A stretch of DNA of 64,000 nt from a virus (Duplodnaviria > Caudoviricetes), in IMG/VR virus record IMGVR_UViG_3300025437_000009. One strand, written 5' to 3'. A model generated the notes under the pieces. The model was given only the letters and a program-made list of their open reading frames with translations, ran no database searches and was not told where the DNA came from. The position numbers and the translations under genes were made by a program. This document shows positions 8,200 to 34,043 of the stretch, piece after piece (position 1 is the first letter of the stretch; every line of letters begins with the position of its first letter).

Positions 8200-9192
8200 T
8201 TAGATTTCAGCTAAATTTTCCCGGAATATCCGCCAACATTCTTCCCAAGTCCAATGCTGGCTAGATAGTTTAACTTGTGCCCGATCTAGGGTTAAACATT
8301 CGCGTACAGCCTCTTCTAAATCCCAATCCATGTATCCGTTTACACTCTGTTCGATAATGTCTACGGGTCCTTGCACTGGGAAAGCCGCTACCGGAGTACC
8401 TTGTGCCATTGCTTCAATAATAACCAGGCCAAAAGTATCTGCTTGGCTAGGAAATACAAACACGTCTGCTTGATGATAGTAGTCTACTAATTCTTGCCCC
8501 GATTTATAACCAACAAATGTAGCCCACGGTAACAGTCGACGAGCTTCCTTCATATATGGACCATCACCTACTATAACTAACGTATATTCAGTTGGATCCA
8601 GTTCTGCCAAAATCGCCAGACCTTTTTCACTGCTGACACGTCCTACATTGAGTAGTAATGGTTTCGTACGTTCACAACGTTCTTGGCTAGGTTCAAGGTT
8701 TCTGTTGACTCCGCGTGTCCAAACAACCATGCGTTCAAAGCCATGTGACTCTAAATCCTTTTGTATAGTCTTTGTAGTAACTAGCACACGATGACTGTTC
8801 TTATGAAACCAACGTAGATACCAATAGGTCAGGCTCTTGGGTACCCGATACATTGTCTTTAAGAACTCGGGGAAATCAGTATGATAACTAGTATTATAAG
8901 GAATATGATTGCGCTCACACCACCACCTTGCAAATAGGCCTACAGGGCCTTCTGTAGCGATATGTATAAAATCCGGCTGTATCGCTTTAATTTTCTTACT
9001 GATACCTTGCGGCCAACAGAGACGAACTTCAGGATAGCCAGGGCAAGCAAAATTAGGGAACTGCCCGGGATCAAGATAAACAATGTTATACCCATCACTG
9101 CGAGCACAATCTTCCAAGTTTTTGAAAGTTGTGACCACGCCATTAACTTGATCACGTAAGTTATCCGTTATTACTAGTATTGTTTTTATCAC
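8200..9192 (-). CDS. Glycosyltransferase family 4 (GT-B)
   Basis: HIATEGPVG, GRVSSEKG, DTFGLVIIEAMAQGTPV. Confidence 0.92.
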   Translation of the reverse strand: MIKTILVITDNLRDQVNGVVTTFKNLEDCARSDGYNIVYLDPGQFPNFACPGYPEVRLCWPQGISKKIKAIQPDFIHIATEGPVGLFARWWCERNHIPYNTSYHTDFPEFLKTMYRVPKSLTYWYLRWFHKNSHRVLVTTKTIQKDLESHGFERMVVWTRGVNRNLEPSQERCERTKPLLLNVGRVSSEKGLAILAELDPTEYTLVIVGDGPYMKEARRLLPWATFVGYKSGQELVDYYHQADVFVFPSQADTFGLVIIEAMAQGTPVAAFPVQGPVDIIEQSVNGYMDWDLEEAVRECLTLDRAQVKLSSQHWTWEECWRIFRENLAEI

Positions 9193-9940
9193 TAGATTGC
9201 GTCCATGTTACTATTTCCCAACGGCCGTCCCAATGCTCTACTAACGCTGTCATTGATTCTACCCAGTCGCCATCGTTCATATAAACAACACCATCTATTG
9301 TTTTTATTTCGGCGTGATGTATGTGACCACAGATAACTCCATCAAAGCCACGCTTACGACAGTAACCAGCAAGATTAAGCTCAAACTGAAAAATGAAATC
9401 CACGGACGATTTAACTTTATGCTTAAGGTACTTAGATAGACTCCAATACCCAAAACCAAGACGGTGACGAATCCAATTAAAACGACTGTTAAGGCCAAGA
9501 ATAAAATCATACAATTTATCCCCAAGGAAATTTAACCAAGGTGCTAGTTTACTTATACCATCAAACAGGTCACCGTGTGTAACCAAGTAACGTAGGCCAT
9601 CTAGACCTACGTGCTCGCATTGATTTACTATTTCAACTTGACCAAAGCCCATACCATATGGTATTAGTGGACGGAGAAATTCGTCGTGGTTGCCAGCTAT
9701 ATAAACTACTCGAGTTCCACGTTTAGCGTGACCTAGTATTCGTCTGATAGCATTGGTATGGCTTTGTTTCCATCGCCACTTGTTTTGTTGAATTTTCCAA
9801 GCGTCAATAATGTCGCCTACTAAGTAGAGGGTGTTGCAAGTGTTGTGTTTGAGAAAGTTGTTGAGTTCTTCGGCTTTACAATCGCGAGTGCCGAAGTGTA
9901 TGTCTGAAATAAAAATTGAGCGATAAGTCTTGGCTTTCAT
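9161..9940 (-). CDS. Metallophosphoesterase, LpxH/COG2908-like (UDP-2,3-diacylglucosamine hydrolase family)
   Basis: SDIHFG, GDIID, GNHD, HGD, GHIH motifs; likely start MKAKT at 9940. Confidence 0.9.
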   Translation of the reverse strand: MKAKTYRSIFISDIHFGTRDCKAEELNNFLKHNTCNTLYLVGDIIDAWKIQQNKWRWKQSHTNAIRRILGHAKRGTRVVYIAGNHDEFLRPLIPYGMGFGQVEIVNQCEHVGLDGLRYLVTHGDLFDGISKLAPWLNFLGDKLYDFILGLNSRFNWIRHRLGFGYWSLSKYLKHKVKSSVDFIFQFELNLAGYCRKRGFDGVICGHIHHAEIKTIDGVVYMNDGDWVESMTALVEHWDGRWEIVTWTQSSDKNNTSNNG

Positions 9941-9985
9941 AACCATATTTATCGAAACACTCTATTGTATGATGTTACAGAATTA

Positions 9986-10639
9986 TTACTCAACAATACC
10001 TTTTTGATATTTTTGAATTCGCACTAGATCCAGTGGTGGGTTACAGCTAGGTATACGTTGATATTTTTTATAGTATTCTAACAGTAGATCTAGTTCAGCA
10101 GTCTTACAATAACTAGGATGCATGGGCAAATATGCTTGATACACATGATCAATTTGATGCTTACCAAAGTTTTCTTTGAATGCTGTCCCACACCCATATG
10201 GACTCAATCGGGGATTTCTTACAGTACCTTTAAAGTCTGTACGACGACCCAACATACCATTGCGACTGGTAGCTCGAGATTGTCCTATATAAAACACTCC
10301 TTGGTCTAAAAAGTCAGCAGAGTCTGATGGTGCACCATCTAAAAATAATCCATAGACATAACAACCGGGGTGTGCTTTATCAAATCCCCAAGACTTATCC
10401 CATTTCTCGTCAATTTGATGCCATTGAGTAAAGGATGTTAGTGCAGGTCGAGTAAGAGTCTGTGTTTGAGTGGTGAACGCTCCTTTACCGCTGATCTCGG
10501 AACACTTGTATAAACTATAGGCTAACTGATCAACATTTGAACAATGTTTAAATACTTCGTAGAGTTGATCTTCAGTCAGCCCGTGATTACCAGATCCGGA
10601 TCTAATATTTTGTGCTAGTGCTTTGGCTAAGTCGTTCAT
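9986..10639 (-). CDS. GIY-YIG-like nuclease domain protein
   Basis: GCYVYG...VFYIGQS bipartite motif, followed by conserved-looking R, E and N residues. Confidence 0.55.
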   Translation of the reverse strand: MNDLAKALAQNIRSGSGNHGLTEDQLYEVFKHCSNVDQLAYSLYKCSEISGKGAFTTQTQTLTRPALTSFTQWHQIDEKWDKSWGFDKAHPGCYVYGLFLDGAPSDSADFLDQGVFYIGQSRATSRNGMLGRRTDFKGTVRNPRLSPYGCGTAFKENFGKHQIDHVYQAYLPMHPSYCKTAELDLLLEYYKKYQRIPSCNPPLDLVRIQKYQKGIVE

Positions 10640-11688
10640 TTTTTACCAATATACTCGTGGCTGTAGCAAACACGATACGCATCACGAACAGTAGTGGTGC
10701 CACCATAGCCTGCCATCTTACGTGCAGTACCATCTTTGTTTAAGTAACTGCCTACTCTAGATTTCTTATTCATTGACGTAGGGCGCCATAACGGTGACTT
10801 TTCACGATGTTCACCAAATGATGGGTGTGCTGTTTTACTAAAGTAGCGTAGTCCGCGGCTTACATATATTTCAGCAATAGCATCACTAAATGCTGTGCCT
10901 ATACCCATACCTTGGAACTCGGGTAGTATTACTGTACGATGGCCACGCCAATAACTATGAATATCTCTATTAGTAGAATGTATGGCGGCATGGAAGCCGA
11001 TAGGCTTGTCACCTAACAGTAAGACATAGTAGTGAGCACTTTTGCTAATTGCAGTATCTAGATAGTGATACTTACTGAAATATCTCCAATAGTCGACACT
11101 TGTGCTTTTGATGGTGAGTGTAAGTTCTGGTCTTGTCCCCAGTCGAAGAAGTGACCTCCGATTTTCTAAGACACAGAGATCCGTGTCATATACGTAGTCT
11201 GGATCTAACCATTCTACTATGTCCCTGTGGCAACTTGCAATGTATAGTGGATCTGTTGTGCCACGGCGATCATAAAACTTACGAATACTTAATGCAAGAC
11301 TTTTAGCAGTATCTCGGTCAACAACCGACGTAAACTCATCTACTGTGGTTAGCCCTTGATCTAAACTAATAGCCATTTCAAAGCGATGGTACTCGCCATT
11401 GCTTAATGTATTGGGTGATCGGAACCAAGTAGGAATACTACGAAGTCCGCAAGCAAGCAGCAATTCTTCTCCACGCTCTGCGGTAGTAAAGTTATCAATT
11501 GTTATACGAGTATTATCTACAGTTGGTTGACGAAGTTCACCTAGGCTACGCAAGATAGTACTCTTACCACTACCACTGGTACCTACTATAAGCACAATAC
11601 CATCTGTGGGTAATTCGGGAATGGTAACAGCAGGCTCTTTATAGTCTTTGATATCGTATTTCTTTTTGATTTCTTCTAAGTAGCTCAT
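10636..11688 (-). CDS. ABC-type ATPase fused to a GNAT acetyltransferase
   Basis: Walker A GTSGSGKST, signature LSNGE, Walker B TTVDEF; GNAT motif A RTVILPEFQGMGIG. Confidence 0.85.
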   Translation of the reverse strand: MSYLEEIKKKYDIKDYKEPAVTIPELPTDGIVLIVGTSGSGKSTILRSLGELRQPTVDNTRITIDNFTTAERGEELLLACGLRSIPTWFRSPNTLSNGEYHRFEMAISLDQGLTTVDEFTSVVDRDTAKSLALSIRKFYDRRGTTDPLYIASCHRDIVEWLDPDYVYDTDLCVLENRRSLLRLGTRPELTLTIKSTSVDYWRYFSKYHYLDTAISKSAHYYVLLLGDKPIGFHAAIHSTNRDIHSYWRGHRTVILPEFQGMGIGTAFSDAIAEIYVSRGLRYFSKTAHPSFGEHREKSPLWRPTSMNKKSRVGSYLNKDGTARKMAGYGGTTTVRDAYRVCYSHEYIGKK

Positions 11689-12158
11689 TTTGTAAATACT
11701 CCAGAAAACTGTTCCAGCAACAAGGGCAATATCGCAGGAGCAGTATCATCAGTCAAATTACTCATCACACGATTTAAGATAGCAGGCAACACTTGAAAGT
11801 TACTGGGAACATCAGCGCCGCCCTTTGATCTAGGAACAATATGATCTAGTTGTGGTTGATGCCATTCGTCATCTACATGCTCCAGGGGAATACGATTTTC
11901 ACCCTTGCCCCAATCGTATAATCTATACACACCCTGACCATCAGTCCAACCATCGGGTGCTTTGGCATACATTTCTTCAGCTTCGGCATCAGTCCACCGA
12001 TACTTGTTTTTATAGTAACCAAAAATAGCCACACGCTTTAGATCGCGAGTCTCGCAAAACTCTCTAAAGATATCCATGGTGTAGTATGTGTTATCTTCAA
12101 AGCTAGTGCAAGGCTCACGTTTGGCTATGCTTTCGTTGATAGTTTGGTAGTTCTTCAT
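11685..12158 (-). CDS. HNH endonuclease domain protein
   Basis: LDHIVPRSKGGADVPSNFQVLPAILN; likely start MKNYQ at 12158, next to the upstream stop. Confidence 0.85.
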   Translation of the reverse strand: MKNYQTINESIAKREPCTSFEDNTYYTMDIFREFCETRDLKRVAIFGYYKNKYRWTDAEAEEMYAKAPDGWTDGQGVYRLYDWGKGENRIPLEHVDDEWHQPQLDHIVPRSKGGADVPSNFQVLPAILNRVMSNLTDDTAPAILPLLLEQFSGVFTK

Positions 12159-12159
12159 A

Positions 12160-13359
12160 TTAGACCAAAGGCAATGTGAACTTGTTATTACCACTTGGCC
12201 ATGCAGGTTCTGCCCATGCAATCTCTGGGGCATACTTCTTACATACTTGCCAAATACCATGAGCAATAATCATTTCCTCTGGAACACGACTGTTGCTGTA
12301 GCTAGCTGAAGTTTGATCTTTATACTCATCCTTGATGTTTTTATGCAATTGACCACCTGTGTTGGCTTTAGTCCAACGCTTTTTAAGTGCGTTCATAATA
12401 GCAAAGTCCACGGTCATGTCATCTTCTTTGAGATTTTGATATTTGAGGAATTCCATCAATCCCCATGAATTTGCAGTATGGAATTTGCTAGTACCAAACA
12501 ACTGTGCATTGATTGTGGTAGCACGAGTAAAGTAATCCTGGCCGTAGGTAATACGATACTTGATCATGTTACCAATACTAGTAAGTACTAGCGCACGACT
12601 ACCATCATCGACTTTTTCGGCTACTGTAATACCTAAATTGCCAAACAATTCGCTGAGTTCATAGCTGATTGCATCTTCTGGCTCACTAGGCATACCAGCA
12701 TCACGTGCGGCCTGTTCACGTTGTACACGAATGCGGTAACGGTCAAACTCACTGGCTACAAGGCTATGAATGTTCAGAGCCGCATACTGTGACACGTCCC
12801 AAAACTCATCGTCACTGGTAATGTAGTTGATAGGTACATCTTCAATGCCTAGAATGATACAGCCCAATGTTCGATGCTGTGCATCATTAACAAACAAGTA
12901 ACCTTTTGAGTTCATACGACCCACACCAGGCAAGACTAAACCTGGATTAAAGCGGAAGATAATATCTTCAAAAATATGACGCAGGAATACGTCACGTTGT
13001 TTTTCGGCATTCTTAACTAACTTGTCTAGTGGTTGCAAGTTATCTGCTGTGTAGTTTAGTGCTTGAGTATTAAGTTTAGTAGCCGCATCGTTAAGGCTAT
13101 CATACACTGGCAGGTCAATGCCTAGCAGTGGATTGTCTGTGCCCATTAGCACAATTTTATTTAAACAGTAGACAACAATGTCTACCAGTGTGGGCTGTTT
13201 GCCTAGTGAACGAGTATTAACATACTCTGGAATACGTTTGAGGCGGCTCTTTTGCTCGGCAAGTGAAAGGGAGTTCCAAGGTACTCGATTGGCCTTTGGG
13301 CCCAATACCTTGAATAAGTCAGCACCGAATTGTGCTGTAATTTTTGGATGATATGACAT
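12160..13359 (-). CDS. ParB/Srx-like (DGQHR-type) domain protein
   Basis: LFVNDAQHR matches the ParB-like DGxHR signature; SD AAGGA. Confidence 0.65.
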   Translation of the reverse strand: MSYHPKITAQFGADLFKVLGPKANRVPWNSLSLAEQKSRLKRIPEYVNTRSLGKQPTLVDIVVYCLNKIVLMGTDNPLLGIDLPVYDSLNDAATKLNTQALNYTADNLQPLDKLVKNAEKQRDVFLRHIFEDIIFRFNPGLVLPGVGRMNSKGYLFVNDAQHRTLGCIILGIEDVPINYITSDDEFWDVSQYAALNIHSLVASEFDRYRIRVQREQAARDAGMPSEPEDAISYELSELFGNLGITVAEKVDDGSRALVLTSIGNMIKYRITYGQDYFTRATTINAQLFGTSKFHTANSWGLMEFLKYQNLKEDDMTVDFAIMNALKKRWTKANTGGQLHKNIKDEYKDQTSASYSNSRVPEEMIIAHGIWQVCKKYAPEIAWAEPAWPSGNNKFTLPLV

Positions 13360-13379
13360 TACATTTCCTTTAAGTGTGT

Positions 13380-13439
13380 TTTATAACAAAGTAAACGATA
13401 ACACGTTTACCTAGTTGAATCTACTTGATAACACAAGTA
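13380..13439 (-). repeat. Reiterated inverted repeats with a shared GATAACAC/ATAACA core in the operon leader
   Basis: GTAAAC-GATAACAC-GTTTAC (13391-13410), TACTTG-ATAACA-CAAGTA (13422-13439), TTT-ATAAC-AAA (13380-13390). Confidence 0.7.
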
Positions 13440-13447
13440 TTAAAGTA

Positions 13448-13476
13448 ATTATAGCGTCAAAGGATTATTGTGTCAA
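13448..13476 (-). promoter_or_regulatory. Consensus sigma70 promoter of the ParB-HNH-ABC/GNAT-GIY-YIG operon
   Basis: TTGACA-17 bp-TATAAT. Confidence 0.85.
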
Positions 13477-13504
13477 CCAGGCCCTAAGTTAGTGCCCACT
13501 AACC

Positions 13505-13885
13505 CTACTGCGTTAGTTCTATTGAGTCTAAATAGGCCCGCAAGTTACCCGAATGTAGAGTAAGCATCATGGCTTCTTCCTCCTCAAAGACAATTATCTT
13601 TTGCCGTTTGAGTAGATAGTAGGGACCTTTGAGATAGCGTTCAAGTTGTAGTAGGCCATGGTTAGTTAGCTCTTCGGGTAATTGAAATTCATAACTCTGT
13701 AGCTTGAGAACGGCCTTGACCATTTGAAGGCCTGCAAGACTTAGTCTTAGACTGGTATCATCTGTAGGATTTTTGAACCAACGTTTTTGCATGTCGGTTG
13801 TTTGACCAACAGGAATATCAGCCTGCGTTACAAATATTTTTGTTAGCTGACGTTGGGTGTAACGCTTAGGGGAAGATTTGCTCAC
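13505..13885 (-). CDS. Hypothetical phage protein
   Basis: 126-aa ORF. Confidence 0.7.
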   Translation of the reverse strand: MSKSSPKRYTQRQLTKIFVTQADIPVGQTTDMQKRWFKNPTDDTSLRLSLAGLQMVKAVLKLQSYEFQLPEELTNHGLLQLERYLKGPYYLLKRQKIIVFEEEEAMMLTLHSGNLRAYLDSIELTQ

Positions 13886-14153
13886 CTTGCTTTAACAAGA
13901 CCACTGAGAACTTGTCTGTCTTGTATAGTGTGTTTAATTTTTTGCAAAGGTTAATTGCATGTCCAGAATTACTAAAACTTATTTTAGAATATTTTGGGCC
14001 TGGATAGCTAGTGAGGATATTGAATGACCTCATGTTGATAGGTTGGTTGTCATAAAAGACCGCCCAGATGCCTTCAGCAGCTAGGACCTGCTGACTTTTG
14101 TAAGTTGATTTATTAACGTGGTCTAATAAAACCGTTGGCTTTGGTCTTGACAT
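13866..14153 (-). CDS. Hypothetical phage protein (TAAATA upstream)
   Basis: 95-aa ORF, SD AAGGA. Confidence 0.75.
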   Translation of the reverse strand: MSRPKPTVLLDHVNKSTYKSQQVLAAEGIWAVFYDNQPINMRSFNILTSYPGPKYSKISFSNSGHAINLCKKLNTLYKTDKFSVVLLKQGEQIFP

Positions 14154-14201
14154 TTCACTAATCCTTGATATACTGTTTATTTATCTCATAATATACGTAT
14201 A

Positions 14202-14417
14202 TTATTTAAAACTGCCGCCATCCATGTTAATAACAACTACATCGTCTACAGTAGAATTTTTACTTAATTGGCTGATTGTGGCCATCAAATCGTAAATTTC
14301 GGCATGCAAACTGCGTGCTTCTTCAGCATTTAAGGTCAATAATTTACCGTTGCTTTGATTCATTGCACGTACCTTACTGTTGAAATTTTTGATCTGTAAG
14401 GGCAAATTATTGTCCAT
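14202..14417 (-). CDS. Hypothetical protein
   Basis: 71-aa ORF coupled to its neighbour. Confidence 0.65.
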   Translation of the reverse strand: MDNNLPLQIKNFNSKVRAMNQSNGKLLTLNAEEARSLHAEIYDLMATISQLSKNSTVDDVVVINMDGGSFK

Positions 14418-14883
14418 TGGCTTCTTTCATAGCTTCTATCATACGTTCTTGACTCTTGAACGGACCTTCATACTCATAACGATTCAGTGTAATAAGTTTT
14501 GGGCAATATGCACGAACCCAAGTTGAACTGAATTTGATAATATAGTAGCCAGCACAGAAAAAACTCTTTGACTTAGCACCCTTGGTATAGATTGGCAAGT
14601 AGCGTTGAACGTCGAGGATTTCGTTGTGTGGTTGTGCGTTGGTCGGGAATCCATAGACATCATAAACATCTTGTTTGACCCGCTTTGGTCGTTCTGCTTT
14701 GACAAACTCAATATTATATTTCTTACTTAATAATTTAATTGATGCAAACTGTTCACGTTGATCATCATGTAAGTAAACTACACCACCTTCGTCGACCATC
14801 ATGATGTTGCCAACCTTGGTACCTTCGGATTCTACAATCCACATTTTATTTTTTACTACGGGTTTTGCAATTAGTTCGGTCAT
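14407..14883 (-). CDS. Hypothetical phage protein
   Basis: 158-aa ORF. Confidence 0.75.
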   Translation of the reverse strand: MTELIAKPVVKNKMWIVESEGTKVGNIMMVDEGGVVYLHDDQREQFASIKLLSKKYNIEFVKAERPKRVKQDVYDVYGFPTNAQPHNEILDVQRYLPIYTKGAKSKSFFCAGYYIIKFSSTWVRAYCPKLITLNRYEYEGPFKSQERMIEAMKEANGQ

Positions 14884-15263: not shown

Positions 15264-15446
15264 TTATTTTGCCGCAGGACGCCGGCGTTCATAGTCGGTG
15301 CGTTGTAGTTCTGTCCAGACACGATTCTTACGTTCATGATACAAATCTATAAGACCTGCTATGAACATAGTAATAAAAAATCCAAAAAATAACAACAATG
15401 CTAAAGCAAGTCCCGCAACTGGCACCCAAAAAACATCATTTATCAT
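15264..15446 (-). CDS. Small membrane protein
   Basis: Long hydrophobic stretch. Confidence 0.55.
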   Translation of the reverse strand: MINDVFWVPVAGLALALLLFFGFFITMFIAGLIDLYHERKNRVWTELQRTDYERRRPAAK

Positions 15447-16431
15447 CAGGATAACTAGCTTCTAAAAATCTAACATAACTGTCGGACTGCTCCGACATCT
15501 TGATCAAATCGTACTTGCCACAGAACTTTAAGAACTGTGCGCCTACCATTGGGCGATTAAGCGGTACTGCACCCTCGGCAATAGTTTCTGCTATCTTAAC
15601 TTTAATATCATCTGGTTGTGCAGTTAAATCAACCAGTGTTACGTTGCGATTATAGTCATCTAAAACTCTGTGCTCATCTCCGTTATGATCGGTCCAGCGT
15701 TGTAGCATTAGGTTATTCCAAGCAAAGCCTTTCGCTGTTTTGTCGTTAAATGCCTCAAGGAGTCCCACTTTATTTTTACTTCCCACTTTACGCACCCCTG
15801 GGAATGCCGAGAAAACGTTATCTGTGGGGTCGCCCCGCATACATTTTTCGAAAAGAATCCACTTAGGATCCGGAATGACTTTTGGTTCCTTAGTCTTTTT
15901 ATCGATGACTGCTTTACCTTTTTTGTCGAAAATACCTTGTATAGTATGGAGCTCATCTGAAATTCCGTTATATTGATTTACGTTTTCTGCCAGTAGTTGA
16001 TAAAAGTCTGTATCGCTTGATACAATAGTATGATGATCTTGGGGATGGCTTTGAATCCAACCTGCGATTAGATCATCAGCTTCTAAGTTAGGATGTTGCA
16101 ATACTGTACAGTTTGTTCGATTAGCAAGAAACTCTTTAAGATTATCAAAGGTTTCCCAAAACAGTCGATCTTCTTCAGCTTCTGCTTCGGTTAGAGCAGC
16201 ACGGGCAACTGCACGATTCTTTTTATAGGGTTCGTAAAAGTCTTTGCGCCAGCTACGTCCTTCTAAACAGAAAATAACGTGATCAGCTTTTTGATCTCTA
16301 AAACTCTTACTAACACTATTTAGTGTCACATGAATAGCAAATCCTAGCTTATCCCAGGTATCTGCCTGACGGTGGGCGGCGTGGCGAGCACGGAAGAATG
16401 TATTAGCGGTGTCAACAAGTAGATATCTCAT
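15436..16431 (-). CDS. T4 RNase H-like 5'-3' exonuclease / flap endonuclease
   Basis: LLVDTAN, EADDLI, SSDTDF, GDPTDNV; likely start MRYLLVD at 16431. Confidence 0.92.
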   Translation of the reverse strand: MRYLLVDTANTFFRARHAAHRQADTWDKLGFAIHVTLNSVSKSFRDQKADHVIFCLEGRSWRKDFYEPYKKNRAVARAALTEAEAEEDRLFWETFDNLKEFLANRTNCTVLQHPNLEADDLIAGWIQSHPQDHHTIVSSDTDFYQLLAENVNQYNGISDELHTIQGIFDKKGKAVIDKKTKEPKVIPDPKWILFEKCMRGDPTDNVFSAFPGVRKVGSKNKVGLLEAFNDKTAKGFAWNNLMLQRWTDHNGDEHRVLDDYNRNVTLVDLTAQPDDIKVKIAETIAEGAVPLNRPMVGAQFLKFCGKYDLIKMSEQSDSYVRFLEASYPDDK

Positions 16432-18787: not shown

Positions 18788-19055
18788 ATATTTTTGACCA
18801 TTCAACTAATTTTTGACTCTTACGCAACTGCGCCGCACGCAATTCTGCATCTGTATATACCTGATGTGCTTTGAGCAATTCTATTAATAGTGTAACATCT
18901 CCTAGCTCTTGAGTCAAGTGTTCTCTTTGGGTACCACCGTCTTTGTACCGATTTTCCATACCAAAGCGGCGGCATTTACTAATAGCCTGTATAACCTCAG
19001 CACACTCCTCTTGGAGTATGTCTAAGATTTCATTAACCTTCGAAGAGGTCTTCAT
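18777..19055 (-). CDS. MazG-like NTP pyrophosphohydrolase
   Basis: LQEECAEVIQAISK...ELGDV acidic motif. Confidence 0.75.
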   Translation of the reverse strand: MKTSSKVNEILDILQEECAEVIQAISKCRRFGMENRYKDGGTQREHLTQELGDVTLLIELLKAHQVYTDAELRAAQLRKSQKLVEWSKIYED

Positions 19056-19539
19056 TCCACTCACGATGTCCTTCACGGAACGCCATATTGCTTTGTGTTT
19101 CACGTACTTCTACACGATAACACCAAAGTCGATCAGCTTCTGCTTGACCCCACATGTCGGGAATATAAACTCCGTTTACAAACTTGTATAGTTGATCGGC
19201 TAGACCTTCACAACCTAGTTTAGGTAGGACGGTTAGTTTAGCTAGATTCTTTTCTTGCAATAATTTGTATGTTTCAAGCTCAGGATCATCCTCGGCTACT
19301 AATAATGTATGATCAAATTGACTTTCAAGAATGCCTTTGAGTTCTTTAAGACCGCCGTAGTCGGCAGCCCAATTACGCACATCTAGGTCATCTGTACCAA
19401 AGTAAAATTTCATACTAAACGAATAGCCGTGAATTAAGTTACAGTGACTATCAGCTCGCCATTGGCGATATGCACAGGGAAATGCATCGTGATACTCTTT
19501 AGTACTTGTGTACTTGTACTGCCTAGATTGGTTTGCCAT
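19033..19539 (-). CDS. queD: 6-carboxy-5,6,7,8-tetrahydropterin synthase
   Basis: CNLIHGYSF, DYGGLK, FDHTLL, VRETQSN. Confidence 0.93.
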   Translation of the reverse strand: MANQSRQYKYTSTKEYHDAFPCAYRQWRADSHCNLIHGYSFSMKFYFGTDDLDVRNWAADYGGLKELKGILESQFDHTLLVAEDDPELETYKLLQEKNLAKLTVLPKLGCEGLADQLYKFVNGVYIPDMWGQAEADRLWCYRVEVRETQSNMAFREGHREWNEDLFEG

Positions 19540-31582: not shown

Positions 31583-31772
31583 TTGCTTTTTGCTCTCTAA
31601 ATTCTAATTCAGATTTAAGTTTAACAATATTATCTTTAATATGCAACCTTTGTTGTTTCAATTTATGTAGATGCTCGTCATTAAATTTGCCTGTAGATTC
31701 CATGCCATCAATCTTTTTATCGATCTCTGCGTGTTCTTTTTCTAAATGTGCAATACGTCCTAAGAGTGTCAT
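31575..31772 (-). CDS. DUF465/YdcH-like coiled-coil protein
   Basis: LEKEHAEIDKKI...LKQQRLHIKD. Confidence 0.65.
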   Translation of the reverse strand: MTLLGRIAHLEKEHAEIDKKIDGMESTGKFNDEHLHKLKQQRLHIKDNIVKLKSELEFREQKANG

Positions 31773-33400
31773 TCTTCCCCCAAATGATCAAGTTTAGTTT
31801 CATCAAATCCAGAATCATCAATATGATGTTCTTCTTCCTCGTCTACTTCGCCTTCTACTACAAATAACTGGTCAAACATAGCGGAACCATTAATGGCTTT
31901 TGTACCTTTATTTCCACGGGTACCAATGATTTCAGTCCAGTACTTACTGTAGCCATCAACAATCTCCATACTTTTTTCTTTAGTGGGTGCTGCAAAGATA
32001 CTTTCTACAATATCTTCAAAGTATTCGCCACCGGGACCTGAGCTACGCATCATAGCAGGATGTTCCCCAAGATCAAATCTACGATTAGCTTCTTGTACTG
32101 CGGTTAAGTGTTGATAAACATTATGTCCCATCAATAGTGCATAACTGAAACTATCCCAACTGGTCTTACCCCATTTGCCATTCTTATTCATGTCAGGCAG
32201 TACATCATACATGTCAGGGTCTTTAAAGTTTTCTTCGGTGAGTGTAACACCTGCTTTAGGAACACCTGGTTTATAGATACAGATGTCTTTCATAGTTAAT
32301 AAATCACTAACAGGTGATTCTTGCCAAACATCATAGATTTTGTCTTGTATTACCCCATCTGACCATTTACGTGTGTCTGTAGCATACTTTTTATCATCTG
32401 CTGATGGTGCCATGCGATACGACCATTTGCCGTTGTTAGGGAATGTATTTTCGTGATAAACCTGTCCGTTAGCAGTTGCTAAGAAAGGACTAGCACAGTC
32501 AAAACTAATTGTAAAATTAGGATTGACATGACGGCGCACAGCACGTTGAATAACAGTAAGTAGTACTGCCCACTCTAATTTACTTGTACCTAGGAAGTGC
32601 ATCCAATCGTGAACGCCTTCTTGTAGTAAGTTATCATAACGTAGGGACACTAAACGACGCAGGACCAAGTGTACATCACACATGTTCTGACCACCCATGG
32701 CCCAACCATCAAAGTGCGTATCTGGATATTTCACAGGATCGCAGTAGTCCTTCATAATGTCATACCAGCGATCAGCGTCGGGATGATTACTGCCCTGTAG
32801 AACATTTAAGAATCTTGTACCGCCATTCTTAACACCCTTACGATGTTTCATAAAGTATTCGTTATTGTATTTGGTAGCTTCAACTGCTTGCGTTAGTGTG
32901 CGAATACCACACTTAGCACTGGCTTCTTTATCGTGGATTACCCAACTTGGGATATCCAAAATCATTCCATAGTCAGCAACACCATCTAACCATTTGAGTA
33001 CAGCATCGCGCTTGGCCTGTGCTTTGGGACAACCTGAGTTGGCTTTCCAATCACCTTCCCATAGGCCTTTACCAATTTGGAACCCACCAGAGTCACCTAA
33101 GATCAGTGTGTTAGGATCTCGATTACGAACCATGTCTTCGCACCAATCTTGTTTATTCAGGTCGAGGTTTGCGTGGCCACCGGAGTAAAGCGACCACTTA
33201 TAAGGAAACAAACCTTTATTAGCATCAAGCCAATTAAGTTGTTCCATATCTGTTAAGCCCTGCGGGAAACGTGCAGGATCTACATAAGGACCATTTATAG
33301 GGTCACGTTGCTTACCTATAAATGTAGCATAGAAACCACTAATAGCCGGAAGAAACACAGCATAGTCGTTTTGTTTAGCGGTTAAGTTGTCTTGCGTCAT
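31769..33400 (-). CDS. Large TGT-fold guanine transglycosylase (DpdA-like)
   Basis: DSGGFQ, LDIP, LQG, MGG, HFLG, FDCASP; no CxCxxC zinc site. Confidence 0.82.
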   Translation of the reverse strand: MTQDNLTAKQNDYAVFLPAISGFYATFIGKQRDPINGPYVDPARFPQGLTDMEQLNWLDANKGLFPYKWSLYSGGHANLDLNKQDWCEDMVRNRDPNTLILGDSGGFQIGKGLWEGDWKANSGCPKAQAKRDAVLKWLDGVADYGMILDIPSWVIHDKEASAKCGIRTLTQAVEATKYNNEYFMKHRKGVKNGGTRFLNVLQGSNHPDADRWYDIMKDYCDPVKYPDTHFDGWAMGGQNMCDVHLVLRRLVSLRYDNLLQEGVHDWMHFLGTSKLEWAVLLTVIQRAVRRHVNPNFTISFDCASPFLATANGQVYHENTFPNNGKWSYRMAPSADDKKYATDTRKWSDGVIQDKIYDVWQESPVSDLLTMKDICIYKPGVPKAGVTLTEENFKDPDMYDVLPDMNKNGKWGKTSWDSFSYALLMGHNVYQHLTAVQEANRRFDLGEHPAMMRSSGPGGEYFEDIVESIFAAPTKEKSMEIVDGYSKYWTEIIGTRGNKGTKAINGSAMFDQLFVVEGEVDEEEEHHIDDSGFDETKLDHLGEE

Positions 33401-33410
33401 ATTAATAATG

Positions 33411-34043
33411 TTATCCAGCAAAGAAGTTTACTGACTCAATAAGATCATAATCTTTAGTGTAATGCTGTTTGATCTTATTGAGGTATTTAGGGTTGTCTAA
33501 TAATGTAGAAAATATTTTTTTAAATGTTGCACGTCGGGTATCGCCATCTTCTCGATTTTCTGTAGTGTGCTGGTAATTATAACTGGCATATTTGTTTGGT
33601 ATTCCTTGATTTCTAAGGAACTGTTGAAAATATAATCTATAATCCAAATTACAGTAGAAAAAAGTTGTGCGAGTTGGATCAAGTCCTTCTATAAAATATA
33701 TCTGTTTTTCTGTATGGTCATCGAATGTCACTTGATCCATTATTAAATCAAAAAATGCTTGATTAAATTGCGTTGTGTCGATATCTCTATGATACAATGT
33801 AAAATATTCACATACGCCACTTAACCAACGTTCCACGGGATCTCGTAGCACCACCATGGCATGTTTATGATATAAATGATCCCAGTGGTAGTTGTAAAAC
33901 TCCCAGCCGAGATCTTTTAAGTTGGGCTTAGTCCATGAGCTAGCGCATTTGGGAATGTTAACATACATAAGGTCACTATCTGGCTTGCTCATGCAAGTAC
34001 CAAACGTATGACCTTTAGGTTCCCAATGTTGATGAAATAGCAT
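33411..34043 (-). CDS. Sulfotransferase family protein
   Basis: YVNIPKCASSW (5'-PSB), LRDPVERWLSG (3'-PB), Y..DY.L C-terminus. Confidence 0.8.
   Translation of the reverse strand: MLFHQHWEPKGHTFGTCMSKPDSDLMYVNIPKCASSWTKPNLKDLGWEFYNYHWDHLYHKHAMVVLRDPVERWLSGVCEYFTLYHRDIDTTQFNQAFFDLIMDQVTFDDHTEKQIYFIEGLDPTRTTFFYCNLDYRLYFQQFLRNQGIPNKYASYNYQHTTENREDGDTRRATFKKIFSTLLDNPKYLNKIKQHYTKDYDLIESVNFFAG

What the first reader, a model, noticed from the sequence alone, without database searches (positions are those of the whole stretch)
9986..13476. Self-contained four-gene operon: ParB-like, HNH, ABC-ATPase-GNAT and GIY-YIG; candidate modification/restriction or anti-defence system
Seen: four translationally coupled genes behind their own consensus sigma70 promoter (13476-13448), sitting between unrelated late-type genes. 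Motifs are DAQHR, an HNH core, Walker A/B fused to GNAT motif A, and Y-V-Y..YIG. Known: DGQHR/ParB-like domains partner DNA-modification systems (Dnd/Ssp families), and phage GNATs such as Mu Mom acylate DNA bases. Inference: this is an early-expressed module in which the ATPase-GNAT acylates DNA or a partner protein while two nucleases attack unmodified DNA (host or competing phage). Alternatively it is a toxin-antitoxin-like addiction or exclusion island. I do not recognise this four-gene combination as a named system.
Basis: partly seen in the sequence, partly recalled or inferred. Interest (0 to 1): 0.75.

Follow-up and report, generated by a model that had tools for sequence, protein, structure and literature searches.

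The report
Composite phage nuclease and acyltransferase cluster
The four overlapping genes are real, but they are not one fixed system: a swappable ParB-like/HNH nuclease pair that resembles the GmrS/GmrD restriction enzyme and an optional, mobile GIY-YIG nuclease gene sit on either side of a highly conserved ATPase-acetyltransferase of untested function.

Summary
Observation confirmed.

Interpretation only partly supported.

- **ParB-like + HNH.** This pair recurs as a precisely bounded two-gene cassette in 21 other phage contigs, without the other two genes. It carries the QR, DGQHR and FxxxN motifs of DGQHR/GmrS domains and a (D/E)H..N..N nuclease partner. Distant family members pair with HNH or GIY-YIG-type nucleases.
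- **ABC-ATPase-GNAT.** This is a core gene (>80% identical in >120 clusters). In syntenic relatives its upstream slot holds divergent ParB-like/nuclease sets, DNA methyltransferases or unknown genes.
- **GIY-YIG gene.** Its closest solved fold is T4 EndoII (Z 9.0). It is exactly absent from about 95%-identical phages in two other studies, and its homologues sit in unrelated contexts, as a free-standing homing-type endonuclease would.

Best reading: a variable conflict or selfish-nuclease hotspot next to a conserved, untested acyltransferase.

This scan had already noted ParB/ABC-GNAT modules in at least 134 genomes and similar cassettes in relatives of this phage. No step has experimental support.

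The parts
13448..13476 (-). Consensus sigma70-type promoter (TTGACA, 17 nt spacer, TATAAT) heading the operon
   Evidence: 12 of 12 match; sequence read. It lies directly after the stop codon (13505) of the conserved upstream ORF.
13360..13447 (-). Leader with two short hairpins sharing a TGTTAT loop and a Shine-Dalgarno sequence (AAAGGA) before the ATG
   Evidence: Sequence read. DNA homology with one cassette copy (L012) extends through the leader to 13453, and with the others to about 13372.
12160..13359 (-). ParB/Srx-fold protein of the DGQHR type (399 aa). Its N-terminal region 1-100 has no assigned fold, the ParB/Srx domain spans about 105-200, and the C-terminal half is helical. It is the proposed NTP-binding DNA sensor or clamp partner of the nuclease.
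   Evidence: AlphaFold2 model, pLDDT 83.5. Matches: Foldseek AFDB ParB/Sulfiredoxin proteins down to E 8e-8; BFVD E 3e-9; VIA top four all ParB/Srx superfamily, Z 5.0-5.7. QR, D[GA]QH[RT] and [FY]xxxN motifs are conserved in 40 diverse relatives. The family has 742 clusters and no Pfam or NCBIfam model.
11685..12158 (-). Small HNH (His-Me finger) nuclease, 157 aa, the obligate neighbour of the ParB-like gene
   Evidence: Weak Pfam HNH/HNH_5 and PHROG HNH/EndoVII hits. H100, Q103, D105, H106, N120 and N129 are invariant in 11 homologues. It is adjacent to the ParB-like gene in all 20 loci that have room for it.
10636..11688 (-). Soluble ABC-ATPase fused to a GNAT acyltransferase (350 aa), a conserved core gene of this phage lineage and a member of a very wide phage family
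   Evidence: phrog_11143 at E 9e-80; Pfam ABC_tran and Acetyltransf_1 above their cut-offs. It has 3218 homologues at E<1e-5, and the best 120 clusters are all 81-94% identical. The motifs are conserved down to 31% identity.
9986..10639 (-). Free-standing GIY-YIG nuclease (217 aa) with an N-terminal helical domain 1-56 and a GIY-YIG domain at about 62-203. It is an optional insertion between the ATPase-GNAT and PlcP genes.
   Evidence: AlphaFold2 model, pLDDT 93.7. VIA matches: T4 EndoII Z 9.0, I-TevI 7.6, Eco29kI 7.6, UvrC 6.7. Catalytic residues are invariant. Contigs from two other studies join 9990 to 10640 and skip exactly this ORF.

Best explanation
The stretch is a composite of three separable units that share one promoter. 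It is not one four-gene machine.

1. The ParB-like protein and the HNH protein form a two-gene cassette that moves between phages as a unit. By fold and motifs it resembles a split GmrS/GmrD enzyme: a ParB/Srx-fold NTP-binding subunit of the DGQHR type, plus a His-Me finger nuclease. Inferred mechanism: the ParB-like subunit binds DNA and a nucleotide and licenses its partner nuclease to cut DNA of the host or of a competing phage. The alternative purpose is to promote the cassette's own spread.

2. The ABC-ATPase-GNAT is a conserved core gene of this jumbo-phage lineage. It belongs to the wide phage family that often sits beside ParB-like, methyltransferase, formyltransferase or ASCH genes. 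Inferred role: an ATP-driven acyl transfer to nucleic acid or to a protein.

3. The last gene is a free-standing GIY-YIG endonuclease of the EndoII/Seg kind, an optional insertion that behaves like a homing endonuclease gene.

Shown: the gene content, the folds, the motifs, the cassette boundaries and the presence/absence polymorphism. Inferred: all activities and targets.
For: **Cassette boundaries**
- DNA homology to 21 other viral contigs is confined to 11685-13372, which is the ParB-like and HNH genes. One copy extends through the leader to 13453. The flanks are unrelated.

**The pairing is general**
- Distant family members (E 1e-13 to 1e-26) are followed directly by an HNH gene (L128, Pfam 25 bits against a 21.4 cut-off), by a MUG113/T5orf172-type GIY-YIG gene (L126, 22.5 bits against 22.3; L040 weak), or by a gene with GIY..YVG motifs (L127).
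- ParB-HNH fusions appear among the fold matches (rows 24-25) and are reported in PMC12704722.

**Likeness to GmrS/GmrD**
- The QR, DGQH[R/T] and [F/Y]xxxN motifs are 80-100% conserved in 40 diverse relatives.
- The partner carries (D/E)H..P...N...N. These are the motifs that PMC4619093 lists for DGQHR/GmrS and GmrD.

**Variable slot**
- Syntenic relatives keep the upstream ORFs (72-92% identity) and the ATPase-GNAT (76-95%). Between them they carry ParB-like proteins only 24-30% identical to this one with other small nucleases, or Eco57I/N6_Mtase-like genes (L048, L056), or unknown genes.

**Optional GIY-YIG gene**
- Contigs of runs X6 and X8 (two studies) join 9990 to 10640 with 5 other letters between, skipping the ORF. 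X8 contigs otherwise tile 9076-14497.
- L049 has the ATPase-GNAT followed directly by PlcP.
- Homologues lie next to radical-SAM, halogenase or ligase genes elsewhere.
Against: - No HMM of DUF262, DUF1524, DndB or a PADLOC GmrSD-type model matches either protein, so the GmrSD likeness rests on fold and short motifs.
- In 13 of about 18 variants of this lineage a ParB-like gene does sit upstream of the ATPase-GNAT in one operon. Unrelated phages pair a small ParB with this ATPase-GNAT. A functional link between those two therefore cannot be excluded.
- The contigs that carry the pair alone are fragments, 27-40% complete.
- EndoII-like host-DNA degradation, rather than homing, would also fit the GIY-YIG fold.
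- There are no expression or biochemical data.
Confidence: 0.55

Rival explanations
1. One reading: one integrated four-gene modification-plus-restriction system. The ATPase-GNAT acylates phage DNA (or a partner protein), and the two nucleases, guided by the ParB-like protein, destroy non-acylated DNA.
For: There is a single promoter and all four genes are translationally coupled. A ParB-like gene, nucleases and the ATPase-GNAT share an operon in most relatives of this lineage. In two relatives DNA methyltransferases occupy the same slot, which keeps a DNA-modification theme.
Against: - The pair occurs without the ATPase-GNAT in 21 loci and in L126-L130.
- Nearly identical ATPase-GNATs (88-93%) work without any ParB-like or recognisable nuclease neighbour (L038, L048, L050, L052, L056).
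- The GIY-YIG gene is dispensable in about 95%-identical phages.
Confidence: 0.1
2. The ParB-like protein is mainly an activator or loader for the ATPase-GNAT on double-stranded DNA, as phage ParB is for its cognate thymine dioxygenase. The small nucleases are selfish genes that have settled between the two.
For: - Experimental precedent: a phage ParB activates its cognate 5mYOX on dsDNA (PMC13229309).
- Small ParB genes overlap the ATPase-GNAT gene in Leptospira phage LE4, Streptococcus phage phiNIH1.1 and Gordonia phage Axumite.
- A ParB-like gene lies upstream of the ATPase-GNAT in 13 of about 18 lineage variants.
Against: - The partner that is always adjacent to this ParB-like family is a nuclease, not the ATPase-GNAT, even at E 1e-13 divergence and in contigs without an ATPase-GNAT.
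- ParB_N was found in only 3 of 46 sampled neighbours of 37-45% identical ATPase-GNATs.
- The ParB-like protein diverges to 24% identity while the ATPase-GNAT stays at 92%. That is unexpected for a cognate pair.
Confidence: 0.15
3. The ParB-like/HNH pair is purely a selfish homing cassette, a two-subunit homing endonuclease that copies itself into cassette-free alleles. It gives the phage no role in defence, host takeover or competition.
For: The cassette has sharp boundaries and unrelated flanks. Several non-homologous variants occupy one conserved slot. It sits in the same operon as a GIY-YIG gene that is itself optional.
Against: The ParB-like gene is large (about 400 aa), and the family has 742 clusters with strongly conserved NTP-pocket motifs. 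That is more than a homing nuclease usually needs. No empty-site allele for the pair was recovered here.
Confidence: 0.17
4. A toxin-antitoxin-like addiction or exclusion island.
For: Nucleases and GNAT enzymes are common toxins, and the genes are tightly coupled.
Against: There is no small antitoxin-like partner, no match to TA or defence models and no plasmid or prophage context. The ATPase-GNAT is a conserved core gene of lytic-type jumbo phage contigs.
Confidence: 0.03

Closest known systems
GmrS/GmrD (GmrSD, DUF262 + DUF1524) Type IV restriction endonucleases and their relatives BrxU and SspE
   Same: A ParB/Srx-fold subunit with QR, DGQ[QH]R and FxxxN motifs plus a His-Me finger nuclease with (D/E)H..N..N. 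In the original E. coli CT596 system these are two separate genes. The element is mobile and its variants change quickly (PMC4619093).
   Different: No DUF262, DUF1524 or PADLOC model matches. This pair is carried by lytic-type jumbo phage contigs rather than by defence islands. The nuclease partner can be of GIY-YIG type. The last motif residue is T or G in most relatives. No modified-DNA specificity is known.
DndB / DpdB (DGQHR-domain ParB-like proteins of phosphorothioate and 7-deazaguanine DNA modification systems)
   Same: The same signature motifs and fold. A DndB-like protein binds ATP and GTP (PMC12704722). The window also carries a queD-type gene.
   Different: No PF14072 or TIGR03187 match. 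There are no dnd or dpd partners beside it. The 550-aa candidate DpdA of the window matched no Pfam family at E 0.001 or better and no solved chain at E 1 or better.
Phage ParB plus ABC-ATPase-GNAT module (phrog_11143), usually beside the terminase or replication genes; untested experimentally
   Same: The ATPase-GNAT here is a full-length member (E 9e-80) with every ABC and GNAT motif. A ParB-fold gene lies in the same operon.
   Different: Here a nuclease gene separates the two. The ParB-like protein is a 400-aa DGQHR-type protein, not the 170-200-aa ParB_N protein of LE4, phiNIH1.1 or Axumite. The locus is not next to a terminase.
ParB-dependent phage thymine dioxygenases (5mYOX with cognate ParB; O'Toole et al. 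2026, PMC13229309)
   Same: A phage ParB-fold protein encoded next to a DNA-acting enzyme and needed for its action on dsDNA.
   Different: The partner enzyme class differs, and dependence is not shown here.
T4 endonuclease II (DenA) and free-standing GIY-YIG homing endonucleases (Seg proteins, I-TevI)
   Same: The GIY-YIG fold has its best match to T4 EndoII (Z 9.0, rmsd 2.9 over 105 residues). The catalytic Tyr/Tyr/Gly/Arg/Glu/Asn set is present. The gene is an optional intergenic insertion overlapping the stop of the upstream gene.
   Different: No Pfam GIY-YIG hit. The extra domain is N-terminal, whereas Seg and I-TevI carry a C-terminal DNA-binding domain. The target site is unknown.
Mu Mom and TmcA (GNAT-fold enzymes that acylate DNA adenine or tRNA cytidine, the latter with a fused ATPase)
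   Same: A GNAT with an acyl-CoA-binding motif A, fused to an NTPase, in a DNA-metabolism context.
   Different: The ATPase is of ABC type, not helicase type. Neither a substrate nor a product is known. The likeness is by logic only (my own knowledge, not tested here).

Membership tests
GmrSD (DUF262 + DUF1524) Type IV restriction enzymes | N-terminal subunit or domain with the ParB/Srx fold | tested here: met
   Foldseek PDB top hits are Noc, ParB, KorB and Srx. AFDB clusters give ParB/Sulfiredoxin at E 8e-8. VIA top four are Srx, PadC, Srx and serine kinase, Z 5.0-5.7 over residues 105-200.
GmrSD (DUF262 + DUF1524) Type IV restriction enzymes | QR pair, DGQ[QH]R pentapeptide and FxxxN motif (as listed in PMC4619093) | tested here: met
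   In 40 diverse relatives: Q121 38/40, R122 40/40, D159 35/40, G160 35/40, Q161 36/40, H162 33/40, F/Y192 38/40, N196 37/40. The fifth position is R in the window clade and T or G in most others.
GmrSD (DUF262 + DUF1524) Type IV restriction enzymes | His-Me finger nuclease partner with (D/E)-H...N...N | tested here: met
   D105, H106, N120 and N129 are invariant in 11 homologues. The second partner family in relatives carries FEH[LV]IPA...N.
GmrSD (DUF262 + DUF1524) Type IV restriction enzymes | Sequence-profile membership (PF03235, PF07510, or the GmrSD-type models that I assume PADLOC-DB holds) | tested here: not met
   The ParB-like protein has no Pfam family at E up to 1 and only a weak unrelated PADLOC hit. 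Of 40 relatives, none hit DUF262 or DndB.
GmrSD (DUF262 + DUF1524) Type IV restriction enzymes | NTP-dependent cleavage of modified DNA | not testable with these tools
   Needs purified proteins and modified DNA substrates.
DndB / DpdB DGQHR-domain proteins | Match to the DGQHR-domain models (PF14072 / TIGR03187) and adjacency to dnd or dpd genes | tested here: not met
   No Pfam or NCBIfam hit. The neighbours are HNH and ATPase-GNAT genes. The candidate DpdA-like ORF at 31769-33421 matched no Pfam family at E 0.001 or better and no solved chain at E 1 or better.
Canonical ParB (CTP-dependent partition clamp) | ParB_N profile match | tested here: not met
   No PF02195 hit. The small ParB of phage LE4 does hit it. 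The nucleotide-pocket motif here is DAQHR.
Phage ABC-ATPase-GNAT family (phrog_11143) | One chain with Walker A, ABC signature, Walker B, H-loop and GNAT motif A; full-length profile match | tested here: met
   phrog_11143 at E 8.8e-80 over residues 3-349. ABC_tran 27.5 bits (cut-off 25) and Acetyltransf_1 26.2 bits (cut-off 20.7). The motifs are invariant in 9 sequences down to 31% identity.
Phage ABC-ATPase-GNAT family (phrog_11143) | Cognate ParB-fold gene directly upstream, beside the terminase | tested here: inconclusive
   A ParB-fold gene is in the operon but is separated by the HNH gene, and in close relatives it is replaced by methyltransferases or unknown genes. No terminase is nearby.
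GIY-YIG nucleases (EndoII / Seg-type free-standing endonucleases) | GIY-YIG fold with the catalytic Tyr, Tyr, Gly, Arg, Glu and Asn | tested here: met
   VIA matches: 2wsh Z 9.0, 1ln0 7.6, 3mx4 7.6, 1ycz 6.7. Foldseek top hits are all Eco29kI or UvrC. The residues are invariant in 26 sequences.
GIY-YIG nucleases (EndoII / Seg-type free-standing endonucleases) | Pfam GIY-YIG profile match | tested here: not met
   No GIY-YIG clan hit at E up to 1.
GIY-YIG nucleases (EndoII / Seg-type free-standing endonucleases) | Presence/absence polymorphism with ORF-exact boundaries between closely related genomes (hallmark of a homing gene) | tested here: met
   The joint 9990 to 10640 appears in contigs of X6 and X8, with 255 and 182 nt on the shorter side. 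L049 lacks the gene between the ATPase-GNAT and PlcP.
GIY-YIG nucleases (EndoII / Seg-type free-standing endonucleases) | Cleavage of the gene-less allele and biased inheritance | not testable with these tools
   Needs in vitro cleavage mapping and co-infection crosses.

The most novel reading that the evidence does not exclude
The variable slot and the conserved ATPase-GNAT together form a phage-borne self/non-self system based on an undescribed DNA acylation. The ATPase-GNAT marks phage DNA. The interchangeable ParB-like/nuclease sets, or methyltransferases in other strains, read or complement that mark to destroy host or rival-phage DNA.
Probability: 0.08. Interest if true: 0.85.

Novelty: new variant of a known kind. 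Interest (0 to 1): 0.45.

Why it matters
- **A large unmodelled family.** The ParB-like/nuclease pair defines a family of 742 clusters at 50% identity that no Pfam, NCBIfam, PHROG or PADLOC model recognised (Pfam on 40 relatives, the other libraries on the window protein and three divergent relatives). It is found in large phages and follows the GmrS/GmrD design, but with interchangeable HNH or GIY-YIG partners. If it cuts DNA in a nucleotide-gated or modification-sensitive way, it would be a phage-side counterpart of Type IV restriction, and possibly a source of new modification-sensing nucleases.
- **A variable hotspot beside a target enzyme.** The data mark a hypervariable slot next to a very conserved ATPase-acyltransferase whose substrate is still unknown, although the enzyme occurs in thousands of viruses.
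- **An annotation warning.** Four tightly coupled genes behind one promoter need not be one system. Here one gene is an optional mobile insertion and two form a swappable cassette.

Tried and rejected
- Megablast of 9900-13600 against cultured phage genomes: no match.
- tblastn of the ParB-like protein and of distant relative P0350 against cultured phages: no match.
- Sequence and profile searches of PDB for the ParB-like protein: nothing useful except a weak SbnI hit, E 0.06, with the broad profile. For the GIY-YIG protein: nothing.
- The exact-word scan of viral contigs missed the GIY-YIG gene, but the protein search found more than 130 clusters.
- Complex prediction of the ParB-like and HNH proteins: no verdict, score 0.00. 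This counts neither for nor against binding.
- The look-up of sequencing runs: no RNA holder listed, so there is nothing on expression. Uncovered bins in read laying were not interpreted.
- Searches for the ATPase-GNAT and for TGT in five contigs that carry the pair were empty, but those records are only 27-40% complete.
- No whole genome is held for the window.
- Iyer et al. 2013 (NAR) and Krishnan et al. 2020 (NAR) are not held, and 'COG2401' appears in no paper. The earlier notes' claim that the ABC-GNAT system is already in print could not be checked.
- The two 218-222-aa ORFs downstream in L038 and L039 were first taken for GIY-YIG relatives. They are unrelated (17-18% identity) and were dropped.
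- A 7-deazaguanine link for the ParB-like protein (a DpdB-like role) was considered. Only a QueD/PTPS gene was confirmed in the window, and the candidate transglycosylase matched nothing.

Full report
**1. What is there**

The minus strand of 9986-13476 carries four ORFs:
- a 399-aa protein at 12160-13359;
- a 157-aa protein at 11685-12158, counted from its ATG;
- a 350-aa protein at 10636-11688;
- a 217-aa protein at 9986-10639.

The first stop codon ends at 12160 and the second ATG begins at 12158. The next two junctions are 4-nt ATGA overlaps.

A perfect TTGACA-17-TATAAT promoter lies at 13476-13448. It sits directly after the stop of a conserved upstream ORF and is followed by a leader with two hairpins that share a TGTTAT loop.

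No terminator-like site follows the last gene on this strand, and the PlcP gene starts 39 nt downstream.

**2. The four proteins**

*ParB-like protein*
- It has no Pfam, PHROG or NCBIfam match.
- An AlphaFold2 model built from 17 homologues has pLDDT 83.5.
- Residues 105-200 match only ParB/Srx-superfamily structures at the top of every search:
  - Noc, ParB, KorB and Srx by Foldseek;
  - ParB/Sulfiredoxin proteins down to E 8e-8 in AFDB clusters, including two ParB-HNH fusion proteins;
  - E 3e-9 in BFVD;
  - Srx, PadC, Srx and serine kinase at Z 5.0-5.7 by VIA.
- A profile search finds 742 clusters at 50% identity. Across 40 diverse members the QR pair, D-G-Q-H-[T/R/G] and [F/Y]xxxN are 80-100% conserved. 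These are the three signature motifs that Machnicka et al. list for DGQHR domains and GmrS (PMC4619093).

*HNH protein*
- It has weak HNH hits.
- H100, Q103, D105, H106, N120 and N129 are invariant in 11 homologues. This is the (D/E)-H-N-N pattern of GmrD.

*ATPase-GNAT*
- It matches phrog_11143 over its full length (E 9e-80), and ABC_tran and Acetyltransf_1 above their cut-offs.
- Every ABC motif and GNAT motif A is conserved down to 31% identity.

*GIY-YIG protein*
- It has no Pfam match, but it models at pLDDT 93.7.
- Residues 62-203 match T4 EndoII (Z 9.0, rmsd 2.9, 105 residues), then I-TevI, Eco29kI and UvrC.
- Foldseek and the language-model search agree.
- The catalytic residues are invariant in 26 homologues.

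**3. Do the four genes travel together? No.**

*(a) The ParB-like/HNH pair is a cassette of its own.*
- Twenty-one IMG/VR loci encode the ParB-like protein at 50-90% identity. All 20 with room have the HNH gene directly behind it. None has the ATPase-GNAT, the GIY-YIG gene or any flanking gene of the window within 6 kb.
- DNA homology stops at 11685 and at about 13372, and at 13453 in one copy.
- There the pair sits among ClpX, ClpP, chaperonin, exonuclease and phosphoesterase genes.
- Five of these contigs (94-141 kb) contain no ATPase-GNAT, but they are only 27-40% complete.

*(b) The pairing with a small nuclease holds for distant members.*
- P0350 is followed by a Pfam-significant HNH gene.
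- P0269 is followed by a MUG113-type (GIY-YIG clan) gene.
- P0308 is followed by a gene with GIY..YVG motifs.

*(c) The ATPase-GNAT is a core gene with a variable slot in front of it.*
- It has 3218 homologues at E<1e-5, and the 120 best clusters are all 81-94% identical. They come from freshwater contigs of up to 367 kb.
- In syntenic relatives the upstream ORFs (72-92% identity) and the ATPase-GNAT (76-95%) are kept, while the 1.7-2.9 kb between them varies.
- The slot can hold:
  - ParB-like proteins only 24-30% identical to this one, with one or two other small proteins. One such family carries FEH[LV]IPA, another is T5orf172-like.
  - Eco57I/N6_Mtase-like genes (L048, L056).
  - Unknown genes (L038, L050, L052).
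- More distant ATPase-GNATs (37-45% identity) sit among replication genes. ParB_N appears in 3 of 46 sampled neighbours.
- In cultured phages the gene follows a small ParB next to the terminase (LE4, phiNIH1.1, Axumite). In phiE255 it precedes a formyltransferase.

*(d) The GIY-YIG gene is optional.*
- Contigs from two other studies, about 93-96% identical to the window, join position 9990 to 10640 with five other letters between. This removes exactly the ORF. One of these runs otherwise tiles 9076-14497.
- L049 has the ATPase-GNAT followed directly by PlcP-Agt.
- Homologues (more than 130 clusters at 56-81% identity) lie beside radical-SAM, halogenase, GNAT, ligase or transport genes elsewhere.

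**4. Most likely working**

*Shown:*
- three separable units under one promoter;
- a ParB/Srx DGQHR-type protein always paired with a small nuclease;
- a conserved ABC-GNAT;
- an optional GIY-YIG gene.

*Inferred:*
- The pair works like split GmrS/GmrD. The nucleotide-binding ParB-fold subunit senses or clamps DNA and licenses the His-Me nuclease.
- Its rapid replacement by non-homologous variants at one slot points to conflict with hosts or rival phages, or to selfish spread.
- The GIY-YIG gene behaves like a free-standing homing endonuclease. An EndoII-like role in degrading host DNA is the alternative.
- The ATPase-GNAT probably carries out an ATP-coupled acyl transfer on DNA, RNA or a protein. 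Its neighbours elsewhere (ParB, methyltransferase, formyltransferase, ASCH) favour a nucleic acid, but nothing here tests that.

*Literature context:*
- Phage ParB proteins can activate a cognate DNA-modifying enzyme (PMC13229309).
- ParB folds bind varied NTPs and are fused to HNH, methyltransferase and acetyltransferase domains (PMC12704722).
- Both papers keep open the rival reading that the ParB-like protein also serves the ATPase-GNAT.

**5. Comparison and novelty**

- **The pair.** It shares fold, motifs and split architecture with GmrS/GmrD, but it fails every profile test for DUF262, DUF1524 and DndB. I describe it as working like GmrSD, not as a member. No library tested recognised the family.
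- **The ATPase-GNAT.** It belongs to a family that this scan has noted with ParB in at least 134 genomes. Similar cassettes were noted in relatives of this phage. One earlier check marks the ParB/ABC-GNAT module as already in print. I could not read the cited paper.
- **The GIY-YIG gene.** It is a new member of a known kind.
- **Overall.** This is a new variant of a known kind, of moderate interest. The four-gene "system" as framed is not supported.

**6. Limits**

- There are no expression data.
- The complex prediction gave no verdict.
- No whole genome is held for the window.
- The phage's DNA-modification status was not verified beyond a QueD gene.
- Most comparison contigs are fragments.

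Noticed in passing
window 13380-13439 (minus strand leader): There are two short hairpins with different stems but the same TGTTAT loop (ACTTG-TGTTAT-CAAGT and AAACG-TGTTAT-CGTTT), plus a third TGTTAT copy before the Shine-Dalgarno sequence. The leader travels with the cassette in one other contig (L012, homology up to 13453).
   Followed up: partly
L048:2163-3999 and L056:2796-4004: In two close relatives of this phage, Eco57I/N6_Mtase-like DNA methyltransferase genes occupy the slot directly upstream of the conserved ATPase-GNAT, in place of the ParB-like/nuclease set.
   Followed up: partly
L035:3363-5095 (Burkholderia phage phiE255 gp29-gp30): The ATPase-GNAT homologue overlaps a formyltransferase gene at the end of the tail-fibre operon of a Mu-like phage. 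This is roughly where Mu carries mom. No ParB gene is annotated there.
   Followed up: no
L036:2863-4867 (Streptococcus phage phiNIH1.1): Gene order is ParB-like gene, then the ATPase-GNAT homologue (matched in two pieces; only the ABC part is annotated), then an ASCH-domain gene, just upstream of the terminase.
   Followed up: no
L026-L029:5001-9953: The marine and freshwater GIY-YIG homologue P0116 is seen in 150 blocks of the collection. It sits in a conserved run of unknown genes followed by two radical-SAM/SPASM genes.
   Followed up: no
window 31769-33421: The 550-aa ORF that earlier notes call a DpdA-like transglycosylase matched no Pfam family at E 0.001 or better and no solved chain at E 1 or better. 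The QueD/PTPS gene at 19033-19539 is confirmed.
   Followed up: partly
window 15278-15460: One contig of run X6 replaces 181 nt of the window with 182 other letters, in the small membrane-protein genes upstream of the 5'-3' exonuclease. This is another local variable spot.
   Followed up: no
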